NCBI RefSeq assembly: GCF_963676685.1
Contig: NC_092353.1
Coordinates: 8,494,001-8,558,000 of the forward strand
DNA from: Mytilus edulis
Taxonomy: Eukaryota
Direction of reading: 5' to 3'
DNA: 64,000 nucleotides
Within the stretch, counting starts at the first letter, position 1. Every line of letters begins with the position of its first letter. The notes under the pieces were generated by a model. That model worked only from the letters and a program-made list of their open reading frames with translations. It was not told where the DNA came from and did no database searches. This document shows, one piece after another, positions 1,740-64,000 of this stretch. A program made the translations under genes and the position numbers.

Positions 1740-2520
1740 TTTTAAGGAATGTGTTTACAAATATTGATCAGATGATGCGTAGTTGAGAGAATTAGAATGT
1801 GTATTTCCTTTATTTTTAAATTTAAGAGCAAGACGATAAGAGAAAAAGAGAAAGAATAAGCACCTTCAGAAGTTACAAGAATCACTGAAGATTCACAACC
1901 ATTCAGGACAACGAAACTGGAACAATCCTTCACCATTTCAACTATTTTCTCTGTTTCATTTGACATTGGTTTAGGTGCCGGCCCACCACCTGTTTGCTTT
2001 GAATATTTGTTTTTTTCAGCATACTGTGTTTTTGCCTTTGATTGCAAGTTTTGCCATTTGGTTTTAACTTCTTTGCCTGTGCGACAATGTAACCCAAGAG
2101 CATTGATTTGGCATGCTATGGTCTTCCAGACCCCTGTTTTCTGTGCATTTGTAATGGCGTTGGTCAATTTGCTTCTTATTACAGTTAAATTTTGTTCAAC
2201 CAGTTGCCTGAGTAAGGAAATTTCTGATGAATCCCAGTTTGATGATTGTTTTTTTCTATCAGCGTCTACTTGGTTCTCCATTTTGATTCCGTACAAAATT
2301 CGCGAAAATGCACGCGAATAAGGGAACTGTTTTAGAACCAGTTGATTCTGGATTAAATAATACTTAAAGTTGTTAAATAACACTTAAGTAATTGAAGGCG
2401 TAATTAAGCTTTGAGCAACAGATTTTAAACTGTTGTTTAACTAATTATTATTTAAGAAGTTAAGTATCATTTATCTTTTAAATAATGTTTAAATTAAATG
2501 ACGTTTGTGCAACCCAGTCC
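1740..2520 (-). mobile_element. PIF/Harbinger transposon remnant carrying the Myb/SANT ORF
   Basis: Myb/SANT ORF plus a Harbinger-like terminus (minus strand GGACTGGGTTGCACAAA at 2504-2520); no transposase or second TIR found. Confidence 0.5.
1864..2281 (-). CDS. Myb/SANT-like DNA-binding protein (Myb_DNA-bind_5 / Harbinger-associated), probably the first exon of a truncated transposon gene
   Basis: MENQVDADRKKQSSNWDSSE..LL...W..IA..INA.....RT..EVKTKWQNL......TGGGP trihelix pattern; ATG at 2281; possible donor GAAG|gtgctt at 1864. Confidence 0.75.
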
Positions 2521-23797: not shown

Positions 23798-23989
23798 TAC
23801 TGGGGGCCGCAAAAAGTGAAAATTATCTTAAATTTCACATTAACTGTCCATATTTGTAAATAAATCAAATTAAAAAAGTATCTATCTCCATAAATGAACT
23901 ACATTTAATTAACTAAGTTATTGTTCACATAAATGAACAATTTGAATTAACTTTGAAAGTCCTTTGGAAAATTGCTAATCTTCTTCATC

Positions 23990-29311: not shown

Positions 29312-29329
29312 TGGTCACGGTACTATAAA

Positions 29330-31518: not shown

Positions 31519-34500
31519 TTAAATAAAAGTCCGCGTCTTCAGATTGGCCCTCATTGGTTTGTTGTATGGATATTCATCTGAACTCATTTGGTTACCTTGT
31601 TAGAAAAAATAAAAAGAATGTTCTTTTCTACCTTGCCTGACAGAATCAGACTCATCATTTCTTTTTCCATTTATAAAAAAATTAATTTTTAATGTGTTAG
31701 CTTTTTCTTCCGGAAACAGACTGCCAGACTGGCAAATCTATGTCCTGTCAATCGTGTTTATTTTTCAAAGCTGAAGTGGCTTTGGATACATACACTTTCT
31801 CAAGTGGTATTTAATTAAAAGTTGGGATGGTCTACGTATACCTTGGGATTTTGCATTTAATTGCATACGGATAAGACATGATGCTTTTATTAATACCCGA
31901 TTATATGAATCCTTTTTAACGTATATCAAATTCAGTAATCATAACAGTGTAACTAGTAAAAGATCAACTTCAGGACCCCCGCAGTACATCATTACAGTGG
32001 AAAATGAACTTCAGACATATCACAGAACCTGACTTTAGTATAACTAGTGGAAGATGAATTGCAGTCCCATCGCAGTACCTAATTTATTTATAAGTTCTTG
32101 TGAAGTGTTGACATGCTAATATTATACTTCAAGAGGAACGCTTATTTATTTGCTTGAAACTTGAGAAGCATCTTCGTAGATTTCGAGAACAGCAATGATA
32201 TAGTTTCTTATAAGTCGACATGCTGTTTTATGTATTCTGGCTACCTAAATAACATTCAAACACATAAGTCGAAACAACTGACAACACCATGGATGAAAAC
32301 ATAAACGACTAACAGATGAGCAACAATTCACAAAACACAACATGTAAAACACAATAATTAGTTACATAAAACTCAAAGACAAGACGTGATAACTAGTGGT
32401 CCTGAAAAGTGAGCATATCCAGCTCCACTTGCGGTACCCGTCGTGTTGCTCATGTAAGTACAAGCCACTAGTAGCACGATTTCAGTCTGAAATAGTCGTT
32501 TTGGTCTGATCATATCTTAATCAACTGGATTTACCGCTGGAAAAACTTCAAGACTTTTCAGACCGTTAAGACGCCGTTCCGATCGATAGTCTCATCAGGT
32601 AAATCAGTCCGTTAAGGCATGTCAAGATAAACAAGACTGAATCTCCAAGCGAGCTGTTTAGATCCGTTACGACGGTGTCATACCAAAACAGACCATGGAT
32701 ACAAAATTACATTAAGATGCTGTCAGACCGTGTTCAGTCGTGTTCAGATTTTAATAATTTGGACACAAAACGGGTGAAACTTTCCCAGTGTTTATCAGGG
32801 GTTGCTCCCCTTTAAAGAATAAAAAAAAAATTAGAAAAAAAACCCAGTTTATGTTAACTGAAAATCTACCATGTCCACTTAATAAAAAAAAAGAAAATAA
32901 TAAATTCTAATTCTTACTTCTTCCTATTAAATTATTTAACATTTTCTTTATTAAAAAACATAAGCAGCTCAAAGTCATACTGCTACTCAAACCGCTGCGA
33001 ATTGAGTTAAAAATCAACAGATTGCCGAAATAATATTTATTTATTTAATAAAAGCATCTGAAATTTTATATTTATGGTTTAAAAGTGATTGCAAATAAAT
33101 GATTATGCAATTACAGACTGGTGCTGTGGTGAAAAATTTGCCAATTTGACGTTACAGATCATTTTTATTCCCTTAAAAATTACGAATGTCGGGATAAACA
33201 CTTGAAAACGTGATCTAAATATGTTTAATTAAATGTTTGATGTAACTTTTTTTTTAAATATTGTAAATAAATATGCATCATCATTTAACTTTTTATGTTT
33301 TGTTGATAAATTTCATTTGAGTTATTGTAAATTTGAGACGGGGAAAAACTATAGCTATGTATGTCTTTTGTCGTTTTCCGTTTATTGTCATGGTATTGAT
33401 CGTTCATTTTTGCCATAATTGTGCGTTTGATTTTTCCATCTTTATTTTTAATTGTGTCTATAATCAAGAGCCTTCTATAACTATTTTACATACCAGATTG
33501 AGATGCCTTCGTTAAAAATACAGTTTGAATATTATTGCACAAGTTTGTGAATATTTAAAATAGGGCGTTCAGGAAAACAAAAGTCGCTATATTGAATGCT
33601 TGTAAAACTCCGTTACATGTGGTACACTCATATTTAAATACCTTTCTGTTAAATATGAAAGTGTAAAAACAGTAATTAAAATCCGCCTGAATAGTGACTA
33701 TCTAACTTATTTTTCAAATATCGAATACACAAATAAATCTCTAACCTATCCACGCTTGCAATTTGTTTTTACTGACAGGTGTCTGATGGCATTCGATTGG
33801 ACATCAGTTTGATGTAGGCGTAACAATTCATCACATGTATCCAATCAGCTGTTTTGTGTGCGATGCCATACAGTCCACATGGATAAGTTTTTTTTATAAT
33901 GATTGCGAACAAAATTATTCGTACAGAATATACATACACTATAAAACACGGTGGCGGATATACCGGGGTATAGGGGGCACGTCCCCCCCAGTTCATGTCA
34001 CCAAAAAAATGTCTAACATTATATATCATTGCTACTGTATCTTCTTATCTAGAGCGGAAATTAATCACAGCTTGATTTGACTTCTTTAACTGGCCGTTAA
34101 TTACACCCAATTTACAATAACCTTGACAAATCTCACTACTAGCCTGGTTGATAGACTGCTCGACTATCTTCTCTACTACTTTAATATTTATTATTGTCAG
34201 TTGTGTCCCAGTGAATTCTTCAGAAAACTATTTCGTGACGCTTCGAATACCAGATAATTGATTAGTTAGCTTGGCCGTATAAACTCGTCATTGAATTGAT
34301 AAGTCATTGTTATATGATAAAAAACCTACAGATAAATTTCATTTGTCTAACTGGACAGGGCATGATATTGGTATCCATCGTATGTCCGAATTATAAATAA
34401 ACAATCATTTGAATAAAATAAAGAAGATGTGGTATCTAACGAGATATAAGGAGTTCTTGGTTTTATTTACGTCAATAATATTGCAAACAAACAACGTTAA

Positions 34501-37500: not shown

Positions 37501-40500
37501 CCATTTCCACTCTCAATTTAATTAATGACACTAGAACAAGTTTAAACATACCTTTAAAATCAAATCTGTACTGTAAACCAGAAGACTACGAAAAGAATAA
37601 TAAAAAGATTACACAGTTTTAATGTACAACGACAGGCATGAATATATGTCGGATTGTTTACCCAGTACATTGGAACTCATTCACTGTAAATAAAAGATGG
37701 CAGATACAATCTATTGTTTTGAAAATCATGCATTTGTATATTTCACACAACTATGACTTAAAGAGGGGCGAAAGATCCAGATGCACCTGAAAATAATCTG
37801 ACAACGCCATGGCTAAAAATGAAACAGAAAAACAAACAAACAATAGTACTCAACCACAACAAAATAAAAAGTAAAGGCCAATCAACAGGAATCCCACCAA
37901 AACCTGGGACGATCTCAGGTGATCCGTAATGTTCAGCAGATCCTGATGTATTTGTGGCACCCGTCGTGTTGCTTATGTTAGTACAGACTCTGTAATAAGT
38001 ATAATTCTGTAGGTTAAATTCGTGAAAAGGAAACGGAATTGTAGTAACTACTCAATTTTTATATGTAGGTCAAGATATGATGAAGATTTTTAAGTGAGAA
38101 GACATCATCTTTATAGCGAAAAGTAAGGTTAAAGGATGCTGCTTACTTCTTTTGTTTCTTCTTAAGAAGTTCCTGTATGACTAACCTTCAGTAGGGTAAA
38201 ATACATACTATTAGCAAAATGTATTTGTACTAATTGTACATTGGTGAATGACTTTGCGTTTGTAGTTATCCTTGGCGTTCGATATCATTACTTGTCAGTT
38301 TTATTTGCAGAAATCATCATCATTGAAATATAAGACGCGTTGATAAATTCAATATTTTTTTTGCGTTTATGATTTTAGCGTCACTGATTAGTCCTTTATA
38401 GACAAAACGTGTGTCAGGCGTACACAATGTGGATCACGGTTAACTTAAATTTCAATTGTGATTCATATGATGACATTTTTAAGTTGTTTCTTAATCGTGC
38501 AGACATGTAAATTTTTCACAAACCTGTGTTTTACTGCTAGCTTTTAACATCGAGTTTGATCTGTATCTATGCACCGCTCTCCTGATTCCTTCGTGTAACT
38601 AAAATGCAATAAAACACTGAATGAATAAGTAAGATTATATGTCCTCTTTCAGTTTTTTCATGAATTATGAAACAAAGAAGGGTGTATGAACTATGTTGTC
38701 ATAAAAAAAAATGTACTACTTTTCAATAAACGATCAAACCTTAAAAGGAAAGGAGATATAACTGCAAGTACTTAAAGATATACGATCTTATATTGTACTG
38801 TTACACCAATATTTTAGGTTAGGAGGAGGGCTCAGTGCTCACAAACCTGTTTAACTCCGACACATTATTTGATTGCATGTACCAATCCATGAGTTAGTTC
38901 GGTGGCTTTGTTGGTTCATATCTTTTGAATTTGTTACCTAAATTGATTTGTTATAATCTAGGCCGTTAGTTTTCTCAATTTAACTGTTTAAAATTTTTCA
39001 TGTCGATTCTTTTTTAGCTGACAATACCGTATGATGTTTTCTCATTGTTGAAGGCCGTATGGTTGCCTTTAATTGTTTGAATTTACTCAATTCAGATTTT
39101 GATGGCTAGTTGTCTCATACGCAATCATACCACATCTCCTTTTTTTTTTTTATATTAACCCACCATTTTTCGGAAATACCTGCTTCAGGTGAGGAATATG
39201 GCATTTGTTTGGTTTAAAGTTTAACGGTTGCTTGATATAGTAGAATTTGTAAGTTGCTATTAAGTGTCCCTTTTCAAATTTGTTTTCAATTGTTTTGTCT
39301 CGAATTTAACTGAAGAGACATACGGTGTTGATATCGCATATGGCGCAGTTAATTCTTACTGGATGGTGTAGAATCAACAAGTCGTCAATATGAAACGTTT
39401 TCATTACATAATTCTTCTGAACTCACCTTTTTATTTGAAACTGCTTCTCTTATAAATATAATAAATCCCTGAAAATATATTAAAGCAACAAAAAGACTTA
39501 AAAACAGATAAGTCAAATTGATCAGATTGTATTGCCTATTGAAATGCAGATCGAGTACCAAAATAAACGGTACTCTTAATGTTTTTAAAATTACAAGCCA
39601 ACAAATTAAATAACCCTCAGAAACTGCAGCTATGCATGTCACCCTGCATACAGGAAGTCGCGTGTTAAAGAGTAATGACTCTTTTCCTAATTTCGTTTTT
39701 GAATTAGCAAGACGATTGTATATCAGATTTTTTTTTTTATATATTTTTAACGTTTTAGTCGTTTTTTCGCTGTGTTGATCCATATAAGTTTGAATATCAT
39801 TTTGGTATTATCTGCCTCCCTTTTAAGTTGAACCAAACTAGCTGCTGTGCTTTGAAAACGTTATTTCAAAATTCTGCGTTTATTACTTTTTAAAGTTAAT
39901 ATATATTATTTTTTATAAATCGTTAATTCGTAATTACTGCTTTTAAAGAGCAACTTAATATATAGTAATATAAATAATTATATATGAATATATACCTGGA
40001 GGGAAGTAGAAATACCAAATAAATACTGAAATATGATTGTATCTTCATTATATGCCAGAATTCCAAATAACCATGATAGTCCCAATACTGGTATTAATAC
40101 AGCCATACATTTAACACCCGCTCTATAAACAATAAATACATCTTTACCTATAGAACTACTATATATAGTAGTTGATCTTTGATGACGCACTTATCAAGTC
40201 ACACACTAAGTCTCGGTCCCATTAGAGTTCACGCGATGCCATCAGTTTTTACGTCCAACGTCAAGATGTATTATGGCATAAAAATGTCCACCCGTGCATT
40301 TTGTCGCCTGTCTTTCCATTCGTCCGTTAAAACGATAGCCCTGATACGCATGTAATGTTACAACGACATTAGGATTGACTTGAGAACGCTTTCTTTTGTT
40401 GTCACATCGTACTTTAAAATGGCATGTACTAGCTAAATTGAGCTTAGATAACTGTTTTTGTAAACTGAACACTTTTGTTGGTATTGGTGCATGTAGAATA

Positions 40501-43500
40501 TCTTTTGATTTTTAAAATTCTCGGCTCGACTCTTTATAGAACTTTTAACAGACATAGCTGACACAACATGCATATGGCTGAATAGGAACATTCTCGTGCA
40601 TATTTTTCAAAAAGATATTCGAATTAAATACTTGCTCAATAGCCAATTTAATTATTGCAACAGGTACTCTTGGTGCAGCTGTTATTTTTTTTTATCTTGA
40701 TTTGTCTCTTCGAAATCACATTTTTACACAATGTTACACTAACACTAATCAATGATTAAGGAACTTCGATTACCTTCATTTTAGTTTTGCAACATTTCAA
40801 TATTTTATCATCAAATACAATAATTAAAAAAAATAAAAATAAAAACAGGATAGAACAAGGCTGTGCAAACCATAGATATTTCTGATGTTTAGTAGTAGTC
40901 GTTTGTTGATGTGGTTCATAAGTGTTTCTCGTGTCTCAGTTTTTATATAGATTAGATCGTTGATTTTCCTGTTTGAATGGTTCTACACTAGTCATTGTTT
41001 GGGGCCATTTACAGCTTACTGTTCGGTGTGAGCCAATGCTCCGTGTTAAATACATTACTTTGACCTATAGTGGCTTTGTTTCTCAAATTGTGACTCCGAT
41101 GCAGAGTTGTCTCATTGCCAAGAATACAACATCTTCTTATATCTGCACAAAGGAAAATATCTATCATGCTATAATTAGACTTATTTACTTGAAACAGACT
41201 TAGCCTACACTAAATACAAACCTGACTTTTTTCTTTAATCTTTCGTTCATCATAGCATTTGTAGAATAGATAGCTTTTAATACAACATGTATTATTCCTA
41301 TATTAATCTACAATCAGGGAATATATATCAACAAAATTATGATAGATGATAATTTGTTGATTACTAGCAAGTCATTCTTTCAAAGAAAAATGGCCTTGGG
41401 ACGAAATAATTATGTCAAACACAAAATATTACAGATGTTTCTATCTAGAGATACCAAGCGCACTTTTAAAATTCAGCAGCCTATACAAATAGGAAATACA
41501 ATGAGCAAGCGGAAAAAGCAAAACAAGGCAAAAAATACCAAGTCGACATGAAAACGTTAAGATACAGAGGACGGGATTGTAGTTACGATATGAGAGAAAA
41601 AAAAGCCGTGAATTACAAAAAAACAGTTTTTGTTTGCGTCTTTTGTCAATTTTACGATCATCTTCAACTAAATAGTTTTCCCCTTTTAGTCTTTGTTCAA
41701 TTTAAATGTTTCAAGAACTATGCACAATTTCAAATCCAGGGCCTTTCCCTTTGGCACTCCACGGTACTTTACCAAAAAAGCACCGTGGCACTCTAAGGGT
41801 TAAATAAAGAAATAGTTGGCATTAGTCTAGTTTTATCCTATCCAGTACTATAGAAAGCCAAGGTTGACAATGATTTTTCGAGGGGTACCAATCGCTCTGT
41901 CACCCTCTCAGCTAGGTATTATTTCATTTATAAATTGATTAAAGCATCAGTGGTATATGTCTATGTTTATGACTCAGAAATTCGTTACTGCAACGAAATG
42001 TAAAATTGATTTCCTACAATTTTTTAAATTCAAGGGTTTATTTGATTCGACCCGTAAACATTTGCAAATGGATGTGAGGTACTATGATTTTGATGGAATT
42101 GTACATTATAACTGACCAACTGTTATAAATGTTGGGGGTTTGAATAGCTATGAACTATGTTTAGCCCACTGTTTGCTATTGAAAAAGCCTGTACCGATTC
42201 AGGAACAGACTACTGTTTTACAGAATCTGTAAATAAACTTACCAGTATAATAAGTAAAGCAGGTCCAACAAAGGCCATAAATACAAAATTATTTGTGCTA
42301 AGCCAGCAACTGTAAACATATAATACAAAAATCAAATAGAGACACTTTAAGACTCTTTGAAAAAAAAACCAATTTAATTGTGTTCACTTGAAAAGGAATT
42401 GTAAATGTATGTTCATTTCTGTAGATATATTTTTCGAAACTGTACACGGAGTAATAGGAAGTAGAGTACATATGTACGTCAGAAATAAATTATCAAACAA
42501 AACAAACACAACTGTATTTGTTTTTTGTTTTTTTTCGTAAGTGTGTGTGTGTGTGTAGTTCCTTTCGATTTTCATTTAAAATCAAACATTTATCTGAGTT
42601 GATTTAAAATATTATATATCTCATATTATTTGTGTGTATTGTAATCGTATTTAGGTGTAATACCACCGACTCATGGAACGTCACATCCGGTTGAATACGA
42701 AAATAGGTCGAAAAAATATTCCCTTGAAATTTACAGTTGTAGGTAATTAATCCTACATTGTATTGTAGTAAAACATTTCTGTTTTTATAAAAATATGTCT
42801 TGGGTATTTCAATGCACCATTATTTTTTTTATTTGAGGTTTCTATAGAATATTTTGTAAACTTATGGTTACATGTTTACTTAAGCTTGTACACTGGTTAT
42901 ATAAGGGAAGTATTTGATTGGTTAACTTCCAGTGTTGAGATAACTGAATTTTTTTTCATTTCTAAAAGCAGAATTTGACCAGTGTAAATATATAGCTTAA
43001 AATTAATCTTAAATTGACGATTCAATTCTAATCAAGTCAAACACATGTTTTAACTATATTGCTGATTCATGTGATCAACATTAAATCAAAACATATAAAT
43101 TCTAAATCCTGGTTAACTAAACAACAAAGAAACATGATGTAAACACGACTATATCAAACCATTGAATAACAAACGATTTTTATTGTTTGAAGTTAAAGTT
43201 TGTAAAACACAGGCTGTTAAATAGATCAACTATAAAACACTTTTCATTTTTTATTCTTATTCATACTAATTTATACATACTATTTTTCGGAATGATATCC
43301 TTTAAGGCGCGTTACTCCGAGAGTTATTCCTACAATCACCAACGGAACGCCTGAAGAAAACAAAATGTGTTACTGCCTACTGTATTATTTGTATGCATAT
43401 GATATTTTTCTTTAAATCAATTCTTTACATACATGGATAGAAATAGTTGAATCGAACCTATATTGTTTTAAAGTGGGGATAACATTGATTTGATCAAACT

Positions 43501-52500: not shown

Positions 52501-55500
52501 TACGAGTCATATTTTTAAGAGAGTAAGTGTAATTTAAAGTTGTGAATATACATGTATCAATGCACTCATCTTCTAAATTTACTTTTCAATCAAAATGCAT
52601 TCTTGTATTTTTAAATATTCTCATAGTTTATTTAGTATACATTAAGTTGAAAAAAAAACATTTCGTTTTAATTATATATACCTTGTAGAGATGGTTGATT
52701 TGCAAGAACTAATTTTGAAATCGAATTTGAATCTGGCGGGAATGAAAGTTTCTTCTTTAATGTTGAAACCTCTATAACTAAAAAATAAAATTCCATTCAT
52801 TTTGTTGATGAGTAACATTTAATTGATTTCATCATATAGAATAAAAAAACCTTTTTTTTTTAGTTTTTAATATTTTAATAACCACACTATAAGCATTTAG
52901 ATAACGAACACTGTACTACTTTTATACTGTATACATTTTTGTAAGTACCCAAATAGACAGTTTATCGTCATAAGTATATACATTTATACTTTTCTCGATA
53001 CCTTTAATTCAGCGTTCTAGTTTGAAAACATAAAATAAGACTCAATATAATGACATTTAAGTTATCGGCGTCGGAATATGTATATAGAATAAACATACAT
53101 TGTCTCGAAATATCAATGTTATTTGTACAAGGCTTAGAAACAGGTAGAACGCGAGACTGTGCCGAGCATTTCTACCTGTTTCGAGCCGAGTACAAATAAC
53201 AGATTGATATTTCGAGACAATGTATGGTTATTCTTTATATACTGCAACTCTTTTAACTGTTCAAAATGAAGTATTTAGGGTAAAACCCGTCATTCTTTAA
53301 TTATGAGCGGACAACGTAAAACCTGTATGTTTTATTGACGTCATAAATAAAACTCTACGGAAACACATTGTCAACGTCATAAACAAGGTGATATACGGTC
53401 AGTGACTGTATATCACACATGAATATACAGTCAATGTAATTTGACTGCTCAAATAGCACAGCTGCAGTACATATCTTCCTGCATACGGGGTATATATCTC
53501 CCAATTGATACGATATTCCCGTGCTTGCATTTCCTATCATGATTTTCTTGATAGAGGTTTGCTGCTCACAAGGAAGCTATTAAACCAAGAGTTCCAAATG
53601 GTGAAGTTGAAATCATCCCTTCGTAAATTTTACGGACGCCATCACGAGTTGGTTGACCGTTATGGAATAACCGTTTCACAAATGATATCGGATATGTTCC
53701 TTACGTCGTAACTACAATCCCCTTCCCTTTCATGAATATGACCTACCGAATTAGACTATTTACCGGATTTGTAATCACTTAAGCAACACGACGGGTGCCA
53801 CATGTGGAGCAGGATCTGCTTACCCTTCCGGAGCACCTGAGATCACCCCTAGTTTTTGGTGGGGTTCGTGTTGTTTATTCTTTAGTTTTCTATGTTGTGT
53901 CGTGTGTACTATTGTTTTTCTGTTTGTCTTTTTTATTTTTAGCCATGGCGTTGTCAGTTTGTTTTAGATTTATGAGTTTGACTGTCCCTTTGGTATCTTT
54001 CGTCCTTCTTTTCCTATTATTCGGTTTTGACTGATGTAGATAAATCTAGCAAAACTTTAGACGAATATAATTATTACGTGTCATTTTCATATTTTGATGA
54101 TCCAATTTAATCTTGCAAAGTAAGAGTTTTCGTAAATTAAAATACTACTGATATGTGTATGCGCATACAGGATCATTTTCTTTTTATCAGTTTATGGTTT
54201 GTTTCACATGCATTACCTATATAGTAATATGTATCATTGCTTGTATTCATGTAGTTCAGACAGTATACTAGACAGTGTGCTTACCTAAGTTTGTTTTGTT
54301 AATGATTACGGTTTCATTAGGTAGTAAATTCTTTTGAACGAGACTACCAAGACTATCTACTATTCCCATAATTTTTGATGCACCTTCGTCGGATTGGTCC
54401 TGTAATGATTTATATGATATCATTTTTAATGAAATATGTAAAAAATATAAACTATTTCAAATCATTTATGATAAAAAAGGAAAATGTTTGATTTCGTCAT
54501 TGTCATCTTCAAAAACAAGAATCAAATTTCAATATTCAACGTAACTATATGGAACGTTCACAATTGAGAAGCAATCTATTTTGTCATAAAATCCTGTTTT
54601 TAAACGACCATCATTATCTATATCCAGATGTAAGTCAAGATACTTCACTGTGTCTGTTGTATCCTTTATTTCATGTTCGATGACATAGATGCGTTCAATT
54701 AGTTAACAAATTTGTATTCATTAAGTGAGAGAACGCCATCTATATAGAAGAAAATAAAGTTAAAGGATACAACTAACTTCTTTTCCTTCTTCCTGATATA
54801 TTTGTGAATGAAGTCAGTTTCATATAAATAAAGAAACAACTCGCAAGCGGAAAGGCACAGCTGGTTTCCATGGGGATGCTAATTGATTATTGAAAAAACG
54901 TCCTATTAACGTAGGAAATGTAGTGTCAGTCATCAAGTGCCACATGTGAAGCAGGATATGTGTCCCCTACCAGAGAACCTGAGATCACCCCCGTGGTTTG
55001 TGTTAATCTATAGTTTTCTATTTTATGTTTTGTACAGTACTACTATTTGTCTGTTTATCTTGTTTCTTTATTAACCATGACGTTGACAGTTTTGTTTTCG
55101 ATTTATGGTTTGTATGTCCTTCTGGTATCTTTCTCTTTGATAATGTATCAAAGAGTTCTTTATTTGAAACAGAGATATTCAGAACAAAGTAGAATGTATC
55201 CGTCCTGAAGACCAGACGCTTATATATACGTTTGTCATTTGTTCTAATGAGGCTAATGCTTGCAATAGAAAAGCTTCGTTTAGATGTAGTAAAAACCATA
55301 CAAGAAATTGCTCATCTGATACAAACTTTACCTCCGAATTAACTTCATTCCAGCTACCGCTATTATCTGTATCCAAAACAGAATTTAGAACATCTCCGAA
55401 TTTCTGAAATGAAATTTGATAAATATCAAATTAATCTATAATATTTTGTTGTTAGATATGGACGATTTATACCACTGTTTGTTTATGTCATATTTATTTC

Positions 55501-58500
55501 CTTAATGAGCTTTTTAATTCCACAATATTAGGTTGCAAGATTATTGTACCTTTTATCGACCATTAGTACACGTAATGCATCTTGTACTGTTTTGGCTTAA
55601 GTATATCATATTTTTGTATTGGTTATGTTTTTACTATTCAATAATTGGTGTGAAATCCTTTAAACTTTAAATGAAAACTTGATGATAATAAAAATCCAAT
55701 ACATGTATGTCATCATCATGATGAGACATCTTTCCCCATTAAACATGCTTTGTCCGTTTTAGTCATGAGACTGATATTGAAATACAAACAAATTGCGGGT
55801 TTTCAGTCAGTACTAAATGTACATAGATAATCCTGTTCAGATGACATTTACATTCATGATACGTTTGGCTGATGAAAAAGATGGAAAATTTACCTCGGAA
55901 TCCACAGACGCATTTGCCGCTGTCCCTATGTCAATAATATCAGTCAGAATAGTAGTGGTATGTTTCAAATCTCCAGATGTGGGAGGATTTTCTTTCCCTA
56001 TAGTAGTATCTATAATATCCAGTACGCCAGTTATACCTTCTGCTACCTTCATAGGATCAGTGATGTTTCTAAGAGTATTCACCTTCAATATAAATACTAT
56101 ATACAATAATTTTGTTAAACATAATGGTATAAAAGTGTCAATGAGTCAGTTGGTGAGGATTTCGATATGACTTTAACTTATTGTTATATTAGAATTGAAG
56201 TGAAAAGGGAGTTGATTTATATTTGTAATACCTCAAGTATCTGTTATAAAAAAAGAATACATGCATAAGATACAAAAAATAATTGACAACTTAGCAATAG
56301 GTATAATGGCGAAATCAGTCAACAATTACCGCTTCTGATGTTTCATGAAGTACCATATTAACACATTCTATATACACCGGATCTACCCAATCACCGTTGT
56401 CGTTGCATTTTCGAAAGGCATTACCTACAAGTAAGCACAAAGATCAGTAATAATCATAGGTCAGACTTTACAAATTATTAACAAGTTTCTGAATTAATGA
56501 ATTACTTAAAATTAATAATCATGAAGAAAAATTATGATTATGAATTACAAGTTCATAAACAAGAAATCTGTTTGTTTGTAAGGCTAAGATTATTTCTACT
56601 AATTAAAAGAAAAAACAATCCATGTTTTTGTATATGCGTATGTCTGGTAGAAACAGTACTGGTATATAAATGTAGCTGAATGCCAATATCATCATTCTTT
56701 ATATGTTTGCATTACTAACCCTTCTGTTCTTTTTCTTTAACCGATCAGCGGGCAGAAATGGGAAATCATTGAATTATGATGAAGAAAATATTTCATTACA
56801 AATATATTACTCGAATTTGGTATTTGAAAAAGCATTCCCCTCCCAAATCAACAATGACAGTTCAAATATATATGATTCATAGTGCAACCTAATGTGTGGA
56901 CTGACTGTCATCTTTTTCATTTTAATAGGATCAGAATATTCGTATGTAACGTGAAATACCTGTATACCCAGGCGGACTTTTTTGTGTGTCTTTTTGCATT
57001 TTAATAGGAACAGAATATTCATATGTTACATGAAATACCTGTATACCCAGGCGGACATTTTTGTGTTTCCTTTTGTCCTGCTGCTATATGTGACCAAGTT
57101 ATATTGTTTAATATTTCTTCTGGACAATAAGCTGCAAAAGATTCATGTTAGAACTATAACTATTTTTTATTAATGTGGATTGGAATTGAAAGAGCTGTCA
57201 GTTACTGTGAGTACTTTGAGATAAATATAGTTTGCGTTATTTCTGTTGGTAGGAATGTAACCATACCCGGTTACATCTGGTAAGTGCTTTTGCTAGATAT
57301 TTTTTTTCCTGCATTGTATTGATGAGTTATACGGATTTTAACTGACTTTCATAGTTTGTTCTAATGTAAGTGTTATGTTATCACACTGTAACATCACTGT
57401 CCAAGGTTCGGGAGACCGTTTGGTGCCTCAATACATGTCTTACGTTACCATATTCCGTTTCAGACTGTCTGAAGGCATACGTTTGAAGTGCAGTGGCTGT
57501 GGCTGCTTCATACATGCATGTCTAGCGTGTTGTGTTTTTTGTAAATTGTGTTGTCATAAATAAGCTGTTTGTTATCCATTATTGATTTAACTCATATTTA
57601 TTATGTCAAAAACTTTTATAGCCGACTAAAAGGATGTTTTTTCGCATTGTTTAGGTCGTACGATTGCCTTTAATTGCTATCAACAACTTCATCCGAACTT
57701 TGGTGGATTCTAGTTTCATTGAAAATGATACCACATCTCTAGAATGTTTTAATGTTTCTGTATATTACATTGATATTACTGATGTATGTTTATTGTATGA
57801 ATGATCATAGGTGTTCTGAAGGGTATTACTATCTAGGTTTAGTTGTTACCTGTTTCGTAATGATCATGGCATGTAAACATTTATGAAATGGTAACTTTAT
57901 GTGATGTTTCATTTAATGAAAAGATCATGGTATAATCGATAACTAAATTAGAAACATATTTTCGGCATCTATTTATCATACAAATGAAATTAGACTATTT
58001 TTTACCGATTTTGGCAATAAACTGTGATTCACATCATCAACATACTTTCACCAGAATAAATCTGCTATTAAAAGGGTGTCCATATGATAACCTACAACCT
58101 GTCGGTAAACTGAATTGCCGAAACGTACATAAAGGTAGCCAAGGAGAAAATGTTCAGCTTTAGTTATCTCGTCAAACCTCCAGTATTGTTAGCATAATTA
58201 CCATACTCCTTAGAGAAATCGGCTGTATATAAGTTATTTCTCTAAAACATCCATCGAATGTTTAAGATTTTAAATCAAGTAAAAGTAAAATCCACTATTT
58301 GCATATGATTTATTTCAAAAACGAATGATAAGTTCCTGAAATTAGCTAAAGAACATTATTAGTTAAACCCTAACTTGAAAAGTTATGTACTATATATGAA
58401 ACGACATACCACGGTTTTTATAGTTTATCTGACCAATACATAGAAGCCATATACTTTTATTATCTGATCTGTGGTAGTGAAATAATTATATTGAAATTTT

Positions 58501-61500
58501 GTAATTTCCATACATTTTGTATTCAAATATACGGATAGTCATGCATAGAAAATATAAATGTTCAACTGCAATTTCTTGTTCTAGAGTAGAATAGATATAA
58601 CTATTATAATTGCATTACTCATATTTACAAATAAATTCAGTTACCAAGCATGTAAAGTTCCTGTAGATTTGTGCAGTGATGACTAGTATCATTTTTATGC
58701 CCCACCTACGATAGTAGAGGGACATTATGTTTTCTGGTCTGTGCGTCCGTTCGTCCGTCCGTTCGTCCGTCCGTCTGTTCGTCCGTCTGTTCGTTCGTCC
58801 GTCTGTCCCGCTTCAGGTTAAAGTTTTTGGTCAAGGTAGTTTTTGAAGTCCAATCAACTTGAAACTTAGTACACATGTTCCTTATGATATGATCTTTCTA
58901 ATTTTAAAGCCAAATTAAACTTTCGACCCCAATTTCACGGTCCACTGAACATAGAAAATGAAAGTGCATGTTTCAGGTTAAAGTTTTTGGTAGTTTTTGA
59001 TGAAGTTGAAGTCCAATCAACTTAAAACTTAGTACACATGTTCCCTATGATATTATCTTTCTAATTTTAATGCCTAATAAAAATTTTTCATCCAATTTCA
59101 CGGTCCGTTGAACATGGAAAATGATAGTGCGAGTGGGGCATCCGTGTACTTTTGACACATTCTTGTTCAATGTAGATTTTCGAAAAACAGAAGTTTGCGT
59201 TATAATAAAATAAAATTTATACATTTTGATATTTTGAAAACCTTTTCCTATTGATTTTTTCTACATCAATTTTCAAACGGCTTTTCCCGAGGCAACAGTA
59301 ATAAACTATATCAAAATCTCATATACTCATTCGAAAATAAGGTAAATAACCATAACCATAACCGAGGAAATAACATTAACTCTTAAAGTAGTATTACCTA
59401 ATGTGTCGACAGGTAAAGAGTCGTCTGCTATGCATGTATATATGAAATTTCATTGATTCTGTTATGTATGTAATTTTGTTTCATACCTTTTTCAAAACTG
59501 TCAGAAATTATTGAGTGTCTTACCTGTTACAACTTTTGTAGATGTTGTAATCTTCAGAGGGGATGACGTTGTAAGTTGTACGGACGTTTTAGTTTCTATA
59601 TTGTGTGTTGTCGTAACATCCTTTGAAGTAGTTAAAGGTGATGTCGTTGTCTCCTTAGTTGATACCGTTGTCGTTACATCGGGAGAAGTAGTTAAAGTTG
59701 ATGTCGTTGCCTCCTTAGTTGATACCGTTGTCGTTACATCGGGAGAAGTAGTTAAAGTTGATGTCGTTGCCTCCTTAGTTGATACCGTTGTCGTTACATC
59801 GGGAGAAGTAGTTAAAGCTGATGTCGTTGTCTCTTGAGTTGATACCGGTGTCGTAACATCGGGAGAAGTAGTTAAAGTTGATGTCGTTGTCTCCTGAGTT
59901 GATACCGTTGTCGTTACATCGGGAGAAGTAGTTAAAGTTGATGTCGTTGCCTCCTTAGTTGATACCGTTGTCGTTACATCGGGAGAAGTAGTAAAAGCTG
60001 AAGGCGTTGTCTCCTGAGTTGATACCGTTGTAGAAACATCGGGAGAAGTAGTTAAAGCTGATGTCGTTGTCTCCTTAGTTGATACCGGTGTTGTAACATC
60101 GGGAGAAGTAGTTAAAGCTAATGTCGTTGTCTCTTGAGTTGATACCGGTGTCGTAACATCGGGAGAAGTAGTTAAAGTTGATGTCGTTGTCTCCTGAGTT
60201 GATACCGTTGTCGTAACATCAGGAGGAGTAGTTAAAGCTGATGTCGTTGTCTCTTGAGTTGATACCGGTGTCGTAACATCGATAGAAGTAGTTAAAGTTG
60301 ATGTCGTTGCCTCCTTAGTTGATGCCGTTGTCGTTACATCGGGAGAAGTAGTAAAAGCTGAAGGCGTTGTCTCCTGAGTTGATACCGTTGTAGAAACATC
60401 GGGGGAAGAAGTTAAAGCTGATGTCGTTGTCTCCTTAGTTGATACCGGTGTCGTAACATCGGGAGAAGTAGTTAAAGCTGATGTCGTTGTCTCCTGAGTT
60501 GATACCGTTGTCGTAACATCGGGAGAAGTAGTTAAAGCTGATGTCGTTGTCCCCTGAGTTGATATCGTTATTGTCGCATCGGGAGAAGTAGTTAAAGCTG
60601 ATGTCGTTGCCTCCTGAGTTGATACCGTTGTCGTAACATCGGGAGAAGTAGTTAAAGCTGATGTCGTTGTCTCCTGAGTTGAAACCGTTGTCGTAACATC
60701 GGGAGAAGTAGTGAAAGCTGATGTCGTTGTCTCTTGAGTTGATACCGGTGTCGTAACATCGGGAGAAGTAGTAAAAGTTGATGTCGTTGTCTCCTGAGTT
60801 GATACCGTTGTCGTAACATCGGGAGAAGTAGTTAAAGCTGATGTCGTTGTCTCCTGAGTTGATACCGTTGTTGTAACATCGGGAGAAGTAGTGAAAGCTG
60901 ATGTCGTTGTCTCCTGAGTTGATACCGTTGTCGTAACATCGGGAGAAGTAGTTAAAGGTGATGTCGTTGTCTCCTGAGTTGAAACCGTTGTCGTAACATC
61001 GGGAGAAGTAGTGAAGGCTGATGTCGTTGTCTCTTGAGTTGATACCGTTGTCGTAACATCGGGAGAAGTAGTTAAAGCTGATGTCGTTGTCTCCTGAGTT
61101 GATACCGTTGTTGTCGCATCGGGAGAAGTAGTTAAAGTTGATGTCGTTGTCTCCTTAGTTGATACCATTGTTGTCGCATCGGGAGAAGTAGTTAAAGCTG
61201 ATGTCGTTGTCTCCTGAGTTGATACCGTTGTTGTCGCATCGGGAGAAGTAGTTAAAGCTGATGTCGTTGTCTCCTTAGTTGATACCGTTGTTGTAACATC
61301 GGGAGAAGTAGTGAAAGCTGATGTCGTTGTCTCCTGAGTTGATACCGTTGTCGCATCGGGAGAAGTAGTTAAAGCTGATGTCGTTGCCTCCTTAGTTGAT
61401 ACCGTTGTCGTAACATCGGGAGAAGTAGTTAAAGCTGATGTCGCTGTCTCTTGAGTTGATACCGGTGTCGTAACATCGGGAGAAGTAGTTAAAGGTAGTG

Positions 61501-63954
61501 TCGTTGCCTTTTTAGTTGATACCGTTGTCGTAAGATCGGGAGAAGAAGTGAAAGCCGATGTGGTTGTCTCCTTAGTTGATACCGTTGTCGTAACATCGGG
61601 AGAAGTAGTGAAAGCTGCTGGCGTTGTGTCCTGAATTGATACTGTTGTCGAAACATCGGGAGAAGTAGTTAAAGCTGATGTCGTTGTCTCCTGAGTCGAT
61701 ACCGTTGTCGTAACATCGGGAGAAGTAGTTAAAGCTGATGTTGTTGTGTCCTGAATTGATACTGTTGTCGAAACATCGGGAGAAATAGTTAATGCTGATG
61801 TCGTTGTCTCCTGAGCAAATATTGTTTTCGCCAAAGTTGATGCTGTTGCTGTTTCAACCAGCGAAGATATACTATCTAAAATTGATGTCTCCAAAGTTGA
61901 TGCCGTTGTTGTTCCAACTGGAGAAACGGGAAAAGTAGTTATAGCTAATGTTGTTGCCTGCTGAGTTGACGCTGTCGCTATTTCCACCGAAGAATATATT
62001 ATTTCTAATATTGTTGTCTCCAAAGATGATGCCATCATACTTAAAGCTAATGGTGTTGTCGCCTGAGTTGATGCTGTTGCTGTTTTAACCGGAGAAGATA
62101 TTATATCTAATATTGTTGTCTCCAAAGATGATGCCATTGTTGTTTCAACGGGAAAAGTACTTATAGCTAATGTTGTTGCCCGCTGAGTTGACGCTGTTGC
62201 TATTTCCACCGAAGAATATATTATTTCTAATATTGTTGTCTCCAAAGATGATGCCATCATACTTAAAGCTAATGGTGTTGTCGCCTGAGTTGATGCTGTT
62301 GCTGTTTCAACCGGAGAAGATATTTTATCTAATATTGTTGTCTCCAAAGATGATGCCGTTGTTGTTTCAACGGGAGAAACATGAAAAGTAGTTATAACTA
62401 ATGTTGCTGCCTGCTGAGTTGACGCTGCTGTTGTCTCTATCGAAGAAGTACTTATAGCTGATTGGATGGACTCCTGATGTATTGATGATGTTTCATCGGG
62501 AACATTTGTTAAAGCTAATGGTGTTGTCGCCAAAGTTGATGCTGTTGCTGTTTCAATTGAAGAAGATATTATATCTAATATTGATGTCTCCAGAATTGAT
62601 GCCGTTGTTGTTTCAACGGGAGAAACGGGAAAGCTAGTAACAGACCATGTTGTTGCCTGCTGAGTTGGCGCTGTTGCGGTTTCCACCGAAGAAACACTTA
62701 TAGCTGATTGTATGGACTCCTGATGTATTGATGATGTTTCATCGGGAACATTAGTTAAAACTAATGGTGTTGTCGCTTGAGTTGATGCTGATTCTGTTTT
62801 AGCCGGAGAAGATATTATATCTAATATTGTTGTCTCCAAAGTTGATTCCGTTGTTGATTCAACGGGAGAAGTTGTTATAGCTAATGTTGTTGCCTCCTGA
62901 GTTGATTCTACTGTTTTTGCAACCGGAGTTGTATGAGATGCAGTTGTCGACTGAGTTGATGCCGTTGCTATATTATCGGGAAAAGTAGTTGTAGGTAATG
63001 TGATTGTCGTCAAATTATTGACAGTAGTTTCAGTTGTGGTCGTTGCAGTAGACCCAGGAAGAACTAGACATAATATACACAAAAGAATAGTTATGTCAAA
63101 TATATATTTGAATTTATTGCTGAATTATTGAAATTTGGATACCATTTCTGAAGATTTTTGACTTATATGGATTGTATGCGTGTGTTTAGACCACCCCTTT
63201 CACCAGTTAGTTATCCCATTGAAATTGGCTGCAAAAGACGTACTACTTCCGTATTGAATTAATGTGTAATTTAGGTAACTGGTATAATATATTACACGAC
63301 TACTTCATTATTCAAGTTTGAATAACAGTAAAATAACAAAAATACCGAACCCGAGGAATATTTTATACGGAAAGTCCTTATTCAAATAGCAACATCAAAA
63401 GCTCAAACACTTCAAACAAATAGATGATAACTTTTATATTCCTGTCATTTTTCTAATCTTAAGATGATTGATGAAAACTGGTTTAAAGCAAGCTAAACTT
63501 CACATTTATATGACAGTAGCATACAAATCTTTTACCATATGTATGTTTATACCTTTAACTGCTGTATATGTAACTATGTGACCCCAAGTTGCTAATGTCC
63601 ATGTCATTTATTTGGTCTCTTGTCGGGAGTTGTCTCATTGGCATTCATACCACATCTTCTCTTTTATAAACAAGCCAGGAAGACACAAAACACAAGATAA
63701 AAGGATACCAAGACTTAGCTAATACAGCATCACAACAAGGTTATAATTCATGTAAGCCGGTATAGTAAGAAGGTTCTGGTGAACTTGCGGCATCAATTTA
63801 CATTTGACTTTTCCACTTGTATCTTCACTTATTACAATTACAGAATCCTGCCGTATAAGTAATTATAATATATACCTGTAACTGTAATTATATTCACAAT
63901 CATAAATGTACAAGGCAATGTAAACACTCTCCACATTTTCTGCGGCAAGAGCAT
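31519..63954 (-). CDS. Adhesion G-protein-coupled receptor (mucin stalk + HRM + GAIN/GPS + 7TM), ~24 coding exons, ~1,850 aa
   Basis: Phase-consistent GT-AG exons (minus): 63876-63954 (MLLPQKMWRVFTLPCTFMIVNIITVT, signal-peptide-like); 59524-63063 (mucin); 59398-59424 (microexon, tentative); 57039-57131 and 56330-56424 (HRM: YCPEEILNNITWSHIAAGQKETQKCPPGYTGNAFRKCNDNGDWVDPVYIEC); 55894-56082, 55332-55403, 54285-54399, 52682-52777, 50779-50842, 48915-49008 (GAIN); 48148-48194 and 46941-47061 (GPS: SCGYWNF..WANSGC..CTCNHLTNFAILMSP); 45861-45964 (TM1); 44982-45084 (TM2); 44280-44430 (TM3); 43281-43350 (TM4); 42243-42309 (CWL, TM5); 41222-41307; 39996-40122 (TM6-7); 39427-39468; 38524-38598; 37552-37585; 31519-31595 (ends KTRTFI*). 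The microexon and the last two exons are less certain. Confidence 0.92.
32466..36718. mobile_element. Non-autonomous CACTA (EnSpm/CMC)-type DNA transposon with ~230-bp inverted termini
   Basis: Left end CACTAGTAGCACGA, right end TCGTGCTACTAGT(T); 3-bp TSD AGC (32463-65 and 36719-21); 32466-32695 is the reverse complement of ~36490-36718; splits a Penelope-type 3' sequence. Confidence 0.85.
37764..38180 (-). mobile_element. Penelope-like 3' fragment, decayed
   Basis: Reverse-complement similarity to 53700-54005 (ggcacccgtcgtgttgc, gacaacgccatggctaaaaat). Confidence 0.6.
39427..45964 (-). CDS. aGPCR 7TM region (8 exons)
   Basis: ALEIITFIGCGLSILGCTLTLI (TM1), ACIIVTAVLHYVFLVVFFLMLCEG (TM3), AWGVPLVIV (TM4), YCWLS..FVGPALLII (ECL2/TM5), VLIPVLGLSWLFG (TM6), FQYLFGISTSLQGFIIF (TM7): 7tm_2 (secretin/adhesion) signature. 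Confidence 0.93.
43820..44140 (-). repeat. Dispersed SINE-like repeat family A copy
   Basis: Reverse complement of 19727-20070. Confidence 0.75.
46409..46576. mobile_element. MITE with 24-bp TIR and 4-bp TSD
   Basis: tgat|ACCAGGGTTGCGTTCAATATCGTA ... TACGATGTTGAACGCAACCCTGGT|tgat; internal tagcta/gtagc motifs. Confidence 0.8.
46941..47061 (-). CDS. aGPCR GPS exon with autoproteolysis site and tethered agonist
   Basis: WANSGCYLKKTEYTVSTCTCNHL|TNFAILMSP in ORF 46878..47093; tatttcag| acceptor and |gtaagt donor. Confidence 0.95.
50258..50720 (+). mobile_element. Helentron/HINE-like non-autonomous element
   Basis: ATGGGGACGAAGTC ... GACTTCGTCCCCAT sub-terminal IR, 5' hairpin ggggacgaagtcccc, internal A-tract, 3' short hairpin. 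Confidence 0.6.
51067..52354 (-). mobile_element. Tc1/mariner transposon remnant
   Basis: Perfect 26-bp TIRs CACATGGAAAAAAGTATTGCAACACC with TA TSD; degenerate transposase motif RSPDLNHIEHIWD in ORF 51511..51693. Confidence 0.92.
53478..54005 (+). mobile_element. Penelope-like retroelement 3' fragment (RT thumb + 3' UTR), little diverged
   Basis: PAYGVYISQLIRYSRACISYHDFLDRGLLLTRKLLNQEF...KFYGRHHELVDRY read in frame to the stop at 53711. Confidence 0.75.
54550..55140. mobile_element. Penelope-like fragments: RT piece (minus) joined to a 3' UTR piece (plus)
   Basis: 54550-54930 resembles 8800-9110 (minus-strand GIPMG and YIDD-like regions); 54937-55140 resembles 53795-54000 on plus. Confidence 0.6.
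55894..56082 (-). CDS. aGPCR GAIN-domain exon
   Basis: Part of ORF 55837..56106 (VNTLRNITDP...TSGDLKHTTTILTDII...VDSE); donor GAG|gtaaat; phase 0-0. Confidence 0.85.
56330..57131 (-). CDS. aGPCR hormone-receptor (HRM) domain, exons 57039-57131 and 56330-56424
   Basis: C-P...W...G...C-P-P-G...G.A.R.C...G.W.....C pattern of the family-B HRM domain; canonical splice sites. Confidence 0.88.
58692..59167 (+). mobile_element. Helentron-associated non-autonomous element (HINE/DINE-1-like)
   Basis: T-run, then ATGCCCC...GGGGCAT sub-terminal IR, (GTCC/GTTC)n microsatellite 58744-58808, two ~160-bp internal tandem units, 3' stem-loop ending cttgtt. Confidence 0.8.
59524..63063 (-). CDS. aGPCR mucin-like Thr/Ser-rich stalk exon (3,540 bp)
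   Basis: Lies inside ORF 59501..63082; acceptor tgtctag|TT, donor ACAG|gtaaga; phase 1-1; no stops over 1,180 codons. Confidence 0.9.
59600..61815. repeat. Coding 60-bp tandem repeat (VNTR), ~37 units of TTSPDVTTTVSTQETTTSAL
   Basis: 60-bp lines align in register from 59641 to 61320; one 3-bp-shorter unit near 61350; more divergent related repeats continue to ~62950. Confidence 0.97.
63876..63954 (-). CDS. aGPCR first coding exon (signal peptide)
   Basis: ttcttgcag|ATG CTC TTG ... ACA G|gtatat; hydrophobic 26-aa leader; phase-1 end matches the next exon. A 5'UTR exon must lie beyond the window. Confidence 0.75.
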
Positions 63955-64000
63955 CTGCAAGAAAATTTCAATTTGTCAGAGCATTCACTTATATGTTGAT

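What the first reader, a model, noticed from the sequence alone, without database searches (positions are those of the whole stretch)
31519..63954. Complete adhesion GPCR whose whole distal ectodomain is a ~1,180-aa mucin stalk with no folded adhesion domain
Seen: the signal peptide splices directly to a giant Thr/Ser exon, then HRM-GAIN-GPS-7TM; no EGF, Ig, lectin, TSP or cadherin exon was found in the flanking introns. Established: aGPCRs are activated by release of the Stachel after GPS cleavage; here HL|TNFAILM is intact. Inference: a very long O-glycosylated rod on a cleavable GAIN could act as a shear, mucus or glycan sensor on a mucosal epithelium, a mucin-GPCR hybrid architecture.
Basis: partly seen in the sequence, partly recalled or inferred. 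Interest (0 to 1): 0.7.

Follow-up and report, generated by a model that had tools for sequence, protein, structure and literature searches.

The report
Mussel adhesion receptor on mucin stalk
A blue-mussel gene encodes an adhesion-type G-protein-coupled receptor whose outer end is a bare 1,180-residue threonine-rich repeat stalk, likely grown from the short linker of a neighbouring gene copy and predicted to act as a sugar-coated lever that would switch the receptor on when pulled, a design already proposed for human ADGRG4.

Summary
The gene is real: 23 coding exons (63954-31519, minus strand) give an unbroken 1,846-aa protein: signal peptide, 1,180-codon Cys-free Thr/Ser exon, HRM, GAIN with intact HL|TNFAILM, 7TM. 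It is one of four tandem Mytilus paralogues. RefSeq truncates this copy to 586 aa but already annotates the same layout for the neighbour. Contigs from a probable RNA run show the signal-peptide-to-stalk splice, best for paralogue-3-like transcripts; the stalk-to-HRM joint rests on public models only. Added here: the fourth paralogue has a MAM domain and a short linker whose DNA matches this 60-bp repeat (73% over 168 nt), so the stalk likely arose by MAM loss plus repeat expansion; stalks are 1,180, 556, 543 and about 200 aa. The concept is not new: mucin-like stalks gave the family its name, a ~2,000-aa stalk acting as a shear sensor is proposed for ADGRG4, and a Littorina receptor has the same head-less layout. 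Function, tissue and glycosylation are untested. The scan noted variable Thr-rich stalks on aGPCR-like receptors before, on other DNA (unchecked). Verdict: new member of a known kind, interest 0.3.

The parts
63876..63954 (-). First coding exon, predicted signal peptide (aa 1-26); ATG directly follows a splice acceptor
   Evidence: hydrophobic stretch 10-28; conserved in paralogues 2 and 3; donor used in contigs of runs X1 and X2
59524..63063 (-). Mucin-like stalk exon, 1,180 codons, 51% Thr+Ser, 6% Pro, 110 acidic vs 23 basic residues, no Cys
   Evidence: acceptor at 63063 used in X1 contigs
59607..61815 (-). 60-bp (20-aa) tandem array, 36.9 copies, 90% matches
   Evidence: 35 units listed, about 90% pairwise identity at every lag
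61823..62905 (-). Older 246-bp repeat, 4.6 copies, 81% matches, in the distal stalk
56330..57131 (-). HRM (hormone-receptor motif) exons 57131-57039 and 56424-56330, four Cys (1209, 1232, 1244, 1258)
   Evidence: Pfam PF02793 on P0002 E 2e-8 and P0004 E 5e-7
46941..56082 (-). GAIN domain, 8 exons (56082-55894, 55403-55332, 54399-54285, 52777-52682, 50842-50779, 49008-48915, 48194-48148, 47061-46941)
   Evidence: Pfam GAIN E 6e-12, GPS E 1e-10; model with six helices and a beta-sandwich, Foldseek to BAI3 GAIN rmsd 2.8
46962..46988 (-). GPS cleavage triad H1520-L1521|T1522 and tethered agonist TNFAILM
   Evidence: consensus H-L/I-S/T and TxFxxLM in PMC13197933 sections 9-10
39427..45964 (-). Seven-transmembrane domain, 8 exons (45964-45861, 45084-44982, 44430-44280, 43350-43281, 42309-42243, 41307-41222, 40122-39996, 39468-39427)
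   Evidence: Pfam 7tm_2 E 2e-42; model vs ADGRD1 rmsd 2.0
31519..38598 (-). Cytoplasmic tail exons 38598-38524, 37585-37552, 31595-31519; ends T-F-I, a class I PDZ-binding-type end (motif recalled)
   Evidence: same tail in RefSeq P0001 and P0004; last exon conserved in paralogues 2 and 3

Best explanation
This is an intact Mytilus adhesion GPCR gene whose distal ectodomain is a head-less 1,180-aa Thr/Ser repeat stalk, likely derived by loss of an ancestral MAM domain and expansion of a 60-bp linker repeat, and predicted to work as an O-glycosylated lever that would pull on a self-cleaved GAIN domain and expose the tethered agonist. Shown: exon structure, open frame, domain order, GPS and Stachel consensus, purifying selection, DNA homology of the repeat to the linker of the MAM-bearing paralogue. 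From family knowledge: cleavage at HL|T in the ER, non-covalent retention of the N-terminal fragment, activation through TxFxxLM and W6.53. Inferred: O-glycosylation, a rod of about 0.3 micrometre (1,180 x 2.5 A, pitch from PMC10687090), and drag from flow, mucus or lectin binding as the stimulus.
For: Open, phase-consistent 23-exon model. Signal-to-stalk splice 63876-63063 with GT-AG ends in 3 contigs of run X1. Stalk-to-HRM joint in 6 public models of the cluster (P0002, P0003, P0004, P0006, P0007, P0008). dN/dS 0.32 and 0.36 for HRM+GAIN, 0.17 and 0.13 for 7TM against paralogues 2 and 3. G6.50, W6.53, Q-G7.50 and the TM3-ECL2 cysteines are kept; model pLDDT 83 with GAIN and seven helices. 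Repeat vs paralogue-4 linker: 72.6% over 168 nt, E 3e-23; protein unit beat 200 of 200 shuffled units; signal-peptide exons homologous (70%, E 8e-4); no MAM remnant near paralogues 1-3. HRM+GAIN tree of 30 rows puts MAM-bearing P0013 outside both groups at 97/92; P0013 is 52-58% identical to all four copies, which are 67% or more to each other. Stalk of 660+ aa also in M. californianus.
Against: No functional, tissue or glycosylation data. Two raw-read RNA runs (6% and 18% of each read) had no depth on either exon. The two joint contigs that can be read carry paralogue-3-like letters; contigs matching this copy only stop at the acceptor, so the splice is indirect for this copy. RefSeq does not join stalk or HRM1 to this copy. 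With no head domain there is no obvious anchor for force, unlike ADGRG4. The end of TM7 has changed from conserved F-H-C/T-x-L to R-E-A-V-S in paralogues 1-3, which may alter coupling. Direction of MAM change is not firm: a 13-row quick tree left it unresolved (support 6) and the 7TM tree places paralogues 1-3 outside the MAM-bearing rows. Variant codons among repeat units were 13 synonymous to 34 non-synonymous (one unit out of register), as for near-neutral drift.
Confidence: 0.5

Rival explanations
1. The stalk is a glycan display for lectins or microbes: binding of a host lectin, particle or pathogen adhesin to O-glycans, not fluid shear, triggers the receptor (an immune or feeding-surface sensor).
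For: 604 potential O-glycan sites; ectodomains diverge faster than 7TM among paralogues (91% vs 98%, 83% vs 95%); the same idea is speculated for ADGRG2 in tuft cells (PMC8105302, passage).
Against: dN/dS stays below 1 in HRM and GAIN, so no sign of an arms race; no ligand or expression data.
Confidence: 0.2
2. The protein is mainly a membrane-tethered, sheddable mucin (glycocalyx spacer or lubricant) that uses GAIN cleavage as transmembrane mucins use SEA cleavage; signalling is secondary or altered.
For: Single giant PTS-type repeat exon with variable length, no head domain; charged residues at the end of TM7 where 12 of 13 outgroup rows have His and 12 of 13 Cys.
Against: 7TM under strong purifying selection (dN/dS 0.13-0.17); Stachel, W6.53, G6.50 and G7.50 intact; model still forms TM7 and helix 8.
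Confidence: 0.15
3. Stalk length is near-neutral: after duplication the repeat drifted by unequal crossing-over, and the receptor responds through HRM/GAIN or a small ligand regardless of the stalk.
For: Stalks of 1,180, 556 and 543 codons in close paralogues; paralogue 2 lost the start of its stalk exon and one run splices it out of frame; near-neutral codon variation among units.
Against: Frame kept across 3.5 kb and in every copy examined; a long stalk persists in M. californianus; long S/T stalks recur in 13 non-Mytilus mollusc relatives among 123 proteins surveyed.
Confidence: 0.12
4. The model is wrong for this copy: the stalk exon belongs to a separate transcript or is skipped, and the receptor starts lower, as RefSeq has it.
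For: RefSeq XP_071137679.1 starts in the second HRM exon; the stalk-to-HRM joint was not tested with reads.
Against: The RefSeq start lacks a signal peptide and cuts HRM in half; the stalk exon is phase 1-1 with donor conserved in paralogues 1-3; the M. galloprovincialis model of the same copy joins stalk to HRM (P0002).
Confidence: 0.04

Closest known systems
ADGRG4/GPR112 (PMC10687090, passages; PMC13197933, passage)
   Same: Very long Ser/Thr mucin-like stalk above HRM-GAIN-7TM; shear-sensor hypothesis already in print.
   Different: ADGRG4 has a dimerising pentraxin head and a predicted SEA domain; this protein has neither, and its stalk is a young near-perfect 20-aa tandem repeat in one exon. 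No orthology shown.
ADGRG2/GPR64 (PMC8105302, passages)
   Same: Ectodomain described as strongly O-glycosylated and mucin-like on a cleavable GAIN.
   Different: Its S/T region is far shorter and it lacks HRM (both recalled, not from a call); 7TM less similar than ADGRD1 or ADGRL3.
ADGRL (latrophilins) and ADGRB (BAI): HormR-GAIN-7TM receptors
   Same: HRM directly before a six-helix GAIN; RefSeq names the gene 'L3-like'; sequence hit ADGRL3 E 8e-53, fold hit BAI3/BAI2 GAIN.
   Different: No lectin, olfactomedin or thrombospondin domains; ADGRD1 scores as well (E 2e-55), so the name is a best-hit label.
RefSeq XP_071137680.1 (neighbour, P0004), M. californianus 'mucin-22-like' P0007, Littorina P0039
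   Same: Stalk directly on HRM-GAIN-7TM with no other Pfam domain.
   Different: Shorter stalks (556, 660+ partial, 437 aa); P0039 sits with SEA/Ig-bearing Littorina relatives, so its layout likely arose separately. All are uncharacterised predictions.
Transmembrane mucins MUC1/MUC16 type (recalled; SEA role in PMC10687090 passage)
   Same: One large variable tandem-repeat PTS exon above an autoproteolytic module.
   Different: GAIN instead of SEA, seven helices instead of one.

Membership tests
Adhesion GPCR (class B2) | Secretin-family 7TM domain | tested here: met
   Pfam 7tm_2 145 bits vs cut-off 20.6; seven helices in the model, rmsd about 2 A to ADGRD1
Adhesion GPCR (class B2) | GAIN domain next to TM1 | tested here: met
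   Pfam GAIN and GPS above cut-off; fold match to BAI3/BAI2 GAIN
Adhesion GPCR (class B2) | GPS triad H-L/I-S/T with four Cys, and tethered agonist TxFxxLM | tested here: met
   C1489, C1504, C1516, C1518; H1520-L1521|T1522-NFAILM; consensus from PMC13197933
Adhesion GPCR (class B2) | Actual autoproteolysis and Stachel-dependent G-protein signalling | not testable with these tools
   needs expression assays
ADGRL (latrophilin) subfamily | N-terminal lectin (and in vertebrates olfactomedin) domains (recalled) | tested here: not met
   no Pfam hit and no Cys in the distal ectodomain; none in flanking DNA
ADGRL (latrophilin) subfamily | 7TM grouping with ADGRL | not tested
   no ADGRL row was in the trees (one search held ADGRB and D1-like rows only); pairwise scores to D1 and L3 are about equal
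ADGRB (BAI) subfamily | Thrombospondin repeats and 7TM grouping with ADGRB | tested here: not met
   no TSP1; the two ADGRB rows form their own branch apart from the Mytilus clade
ADGRG4 type | Pentraxin head and SEA domain around the stalk | tested here: not met
   stalk exon runs from signal peptide to HRM with no Cys and no Pfam hit
Mucin (PTS) domain | Long Pro/Thr/Ser-rich tandem-repeat region | tested here: met
   51% Thr+Ser, 6% Pro, 36.9 x 60 bp
Mucin (PTS) domain | Dense O-glycosylation | not testable with these tools
   no predictor or glycoproteomic data available

The most novel reading that the evidence does not exclude
The four-gene array is a natural ruler series: after shedding its MAM head, one mussel adhesion GPCR lineage turned a linker into a variable-number repeat rod (about 200, 543, 556 and 1,180 aa) that sets different force thresholds for tethered-agonist release, with a rewired TM7 end, so that a bare glycan rod with no ligand-binding head is enough for flow or mucus sensing.
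Probability: 0.12. Interest if true: 0.62.

Novelty: new member of a known kind. Interest (0 to 1): 0.3.

Why it matters
It corrects a truncated public model (586 aa against 1,846 aa) and records, in one locus, how a folded head can be traded for a mucin rod by exon loss and repeat growth. If the stalk alone transmits force, the paralogue series offers matched receptors (83-91% identical HRM+GAIN, 94-98% identical 7TM) that differ mainly in stalk length, a ready test of whether ectodomain length tunes adhesion-GPCR mechanosensing, which is proposed but not settled for ADGRG4. Otherwise it is one more lineage-specific mollusc adhesion GPCR.

Tried and rejected
Run search: no RNA holder listed on record; small shares not used as evidence. 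The stalk-to-HRM joint and the downstream joints were not tested with reads. A block shared upstream of all four paralogues looked like a first exon but is a dispersed repeat also present in an intron of this gene; rejected. A donor site conserved in paralogues 1-3 at C10:8568277 is a candidate 5' exon with a stop two codons before the donor; not confirmed by reads. 'VSHTGTS-stop' at 38185 was considered as last exon and dropped for the RefSeq tail conserved in paralogues. Higher-order periodicity in the 60-bp array: not found, identity 89-91% at lags 1-16. Positive selection on the ectodomain: not seen, all dN/dS below 0.6. Three rows (P0008, P0040, P0045) were left out of the trees because my GPS pattern did not match; the 30-row 7TM tree is a quick tree only. 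AU test of stalk-only rows as one clade in 7TM gave p 0.048, borderline. Literature: seven searches listed no paper on this gene or on mussel mucin-stalk adhesion GPCRs; I saw only listings for those not named as read; the library lacks most subscription papers and no supplements were opened. No complex prediction was run.

Full report
Observation. The window holds one 3.6-kb open frame on the minus strand, inside which lie a 60-bp array (36.9 copies, 90% matches) and a 246-bp array. Reading the splice sites gave 21 exons from 63954 to 38524, all AG/GT, phase-compatible and stop-free. Order: signal peptide (26 aa), stalk exon (1,180 codons; 604 Ser+Thr of 1,179, 110 acidic, 23 basic, no Cys), HRM, GAIN, H-L|T-N-F-A-I-L-M, 7TM, short tail ending T-F-I. 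Pfam supports GAIN, GPS and 7tm_2 on the RefSeq fragment of this gene, HRM on its orthologue and paralogue, and nothing on the stalk. An AlphaFold model of residues 1261-1846 (pLDDT 83; pTM 0.51, so the GAIN-7TM orientation is uncertain) matches solved GAIN and aGPCR 7TM folds.

No hidden head. Neither flanking intron holds an in-frame symmetric exon of 60 nt or more under my filter. 115 homologue N-termini found nothing in the introns and only a stop-ridden opposite-strand repeat upstream, while recovering the MAM exons of paralogue 4. The signal exon starts at an acceptor, so an upstream exon exists; one X2 contig carries 211 further letters there. In paralogue 4 the upstream exon adds 10 codons after an in-frame stop; in paralogues 1-3 a conserved candidate donor is preceded by a stop. 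That candidate is unconfirmed.

Transcript evidence. Of four runs laid on 62906-64000, X1 (RNA by guess) has three contigs skipping exactly 812 nt with GT-AG ends. The two that can be read differ from the window by 8 letters, including a paralogue-3 codon; contigs with 1-2 differences stop at the acceptor and do not enter the intron, which fits the same splice for this copy but does not show it. X2 shows a joint to 63228 with paralogue-2 letters, which is out of frame. The two raw-read runs had no exon depth in the 6% and 18% read. The stalk-to-HRM joint was not tested with reads; it stands in six public models.

Public record. The gene is Mytilus edulis RefSeq XP_071137679.1, modelled as 586 aa starting inside HRM. 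The neighbour XP_071137680.1 is already annotated as signal peptide, stalk, HRM, GAIN, 7TM. A genome search finds four close copies within 250 kb and 20 more distant TM3 matches elsewhere (lower bounds).

Origin. Paralogues 1-3 have stalk exons of 1,180, 556 and 543 codons built on the same 20-aa unit. Paralogue 4 has signal peptide, three MAM exons, two Thr-rich exons (50 and about 150 codons), then HRM. Its second linker exon matches the window repeat in DNA (72.6% over 168 nt, E 3e-23) and in protein (0 of 200 shuffled units scored as high); its signal exon matches that of paralogue 3. All these modules are phase 1, so exon loss keeps frame. A more distant relative, P0013, also has MAM and a short linker and falls outside both groups in the 30-row HRM+GAIN tree (97/92) and by identity. 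Against this, a 13-row quick tree left the fork open and the 7TM trees put paralogues 1-3 outside. I put MAM loss at about 75%. All copies are under purifying selection. Synonymous distance between paralogues 1 and 2 drops from 0.13 in the ectodomain to 0.04 in the 7TM, and intron identity rises from about 85% to 93-96%, suggesting gene conversion of the 3' half (inference).

Mechanism. By family knowledge (PMC13197933, abstract, sections 9, 10, 64 and passages read) the triad predicts cleavage in the ER, and TxFxxLM with W6.53, G6.50 and G7.50, all present, predicts tethered-agonist activation. A glycosylated stalk would reach about 0.3 micrometre at the 2.5 A pitch quoted in PMC10687090. I commit to a lever that transmits drag or binding force to GAIN (0.5). 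Rivals: glycan display for lectins or microbes (0.2), sheddable tethered mucin with altered signalling (0.15), neutral repeat growth (0.12), wrong model (0.04). One unexplained feature: paralogues 1-3 carry R-E/D-A-V-S at the end of TM7 where 13 outgroup rows have no charged residue at the first position, His in 12 and Cys in 12.

Comparison and novelty. Mucin-like stalks gave the family its name (PMC8421042, passages). ADGRG4 has about 2,000 mucin-like residues and a shear-sensor hypothesis (PMC10687090, passages). The ADGRG2 ectodomain is called mucin-like (PMC8105302, passages). Among 123 proteins held, 21 have an S/T run of 150 aa or more, 13 of them from other molluscs; Littorina P0039 has a 437-aa stalk with no Cys directly on HRM. 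The protein meets the tested aGPCR criteria, fails the ADGRL, ADGRB and ADGRG4 head-domain criteria, and was not tested against ADGRL by tree. Seven literature searches listed nothing on this gene. Earlier scan notes had nothing near this place and one unchecked report of variable Thr-rich stalks omitted from gene models in another organism.

Verdict. Real, intact, under-annotated; a new member of a known kind with an unusually long and clean repeat stalk and a traceable origin. Interest 0.3.

Noticed in passing
L035:8334-9533 (minus; C10:8443533-8442334): A single 400-codon Cys-rich exon with its own signal peptide lies inside paralogue 4 just before HRM; RefSeq uses it as an alternative first exon in M. 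galloprovincialis (P0009), giving one receptor two different heads (MAM or this). No Pfam hit. Could equally be a nested secreted-protein gene.
   Followed up: partly
L007:2781-5273 (minus; paralogue 2): A deletion removed the acceptor and start of the stalk exon. RefSeq M. edulis uses an in-frame cryptic acceptor; run X2 shows an out-of-frame one giving a 35-aa peptide; the M. galloprovincialis model starts without a signal peptide.
   Followed up: partly
window 39427-39468: TM7 end changed to R-E-A-V-S in paralogues 1-3 by several substitutions in adjacent codons; paralogue 4 and M. californianus keep F-H-T-V-L.
   Followed up: partly
P0007 (M. californianus): Ectodomain 82-83% like paralogues 1/3 but 7TM 87% like paralogue 4, switching within the GPS exon: ancestral state, gene conversion or a fused model.
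   Followed up: partly
window 23978-29314 (minus): Broken frames resembling reverse transcriptase, RNase H and integrase of a BEL/Pao-type retrotransposon (label recalled, not searched).
   Followed up: no
window 1745-2383 (minus) and L040:8608-9123 (plus): Myb/SANT-like and DDE-nuclease-like frames facing each other, as in a Harbinger-type transposon (labels recalled).
   Followed up: no
L028:4522-5688, L029:5326-6252, L032:6260-7480 (minus): Cluster of long single-exon frames resembling Cys-loop ligand-gated ion channel subunits (label recalled).
   Followed up: no
L019:1685-4249 (plus): 855-codon single-exon frame resembling a Toll-like receptor, with a second similar start at the end of L020 (label recalled).
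   Followed up: no
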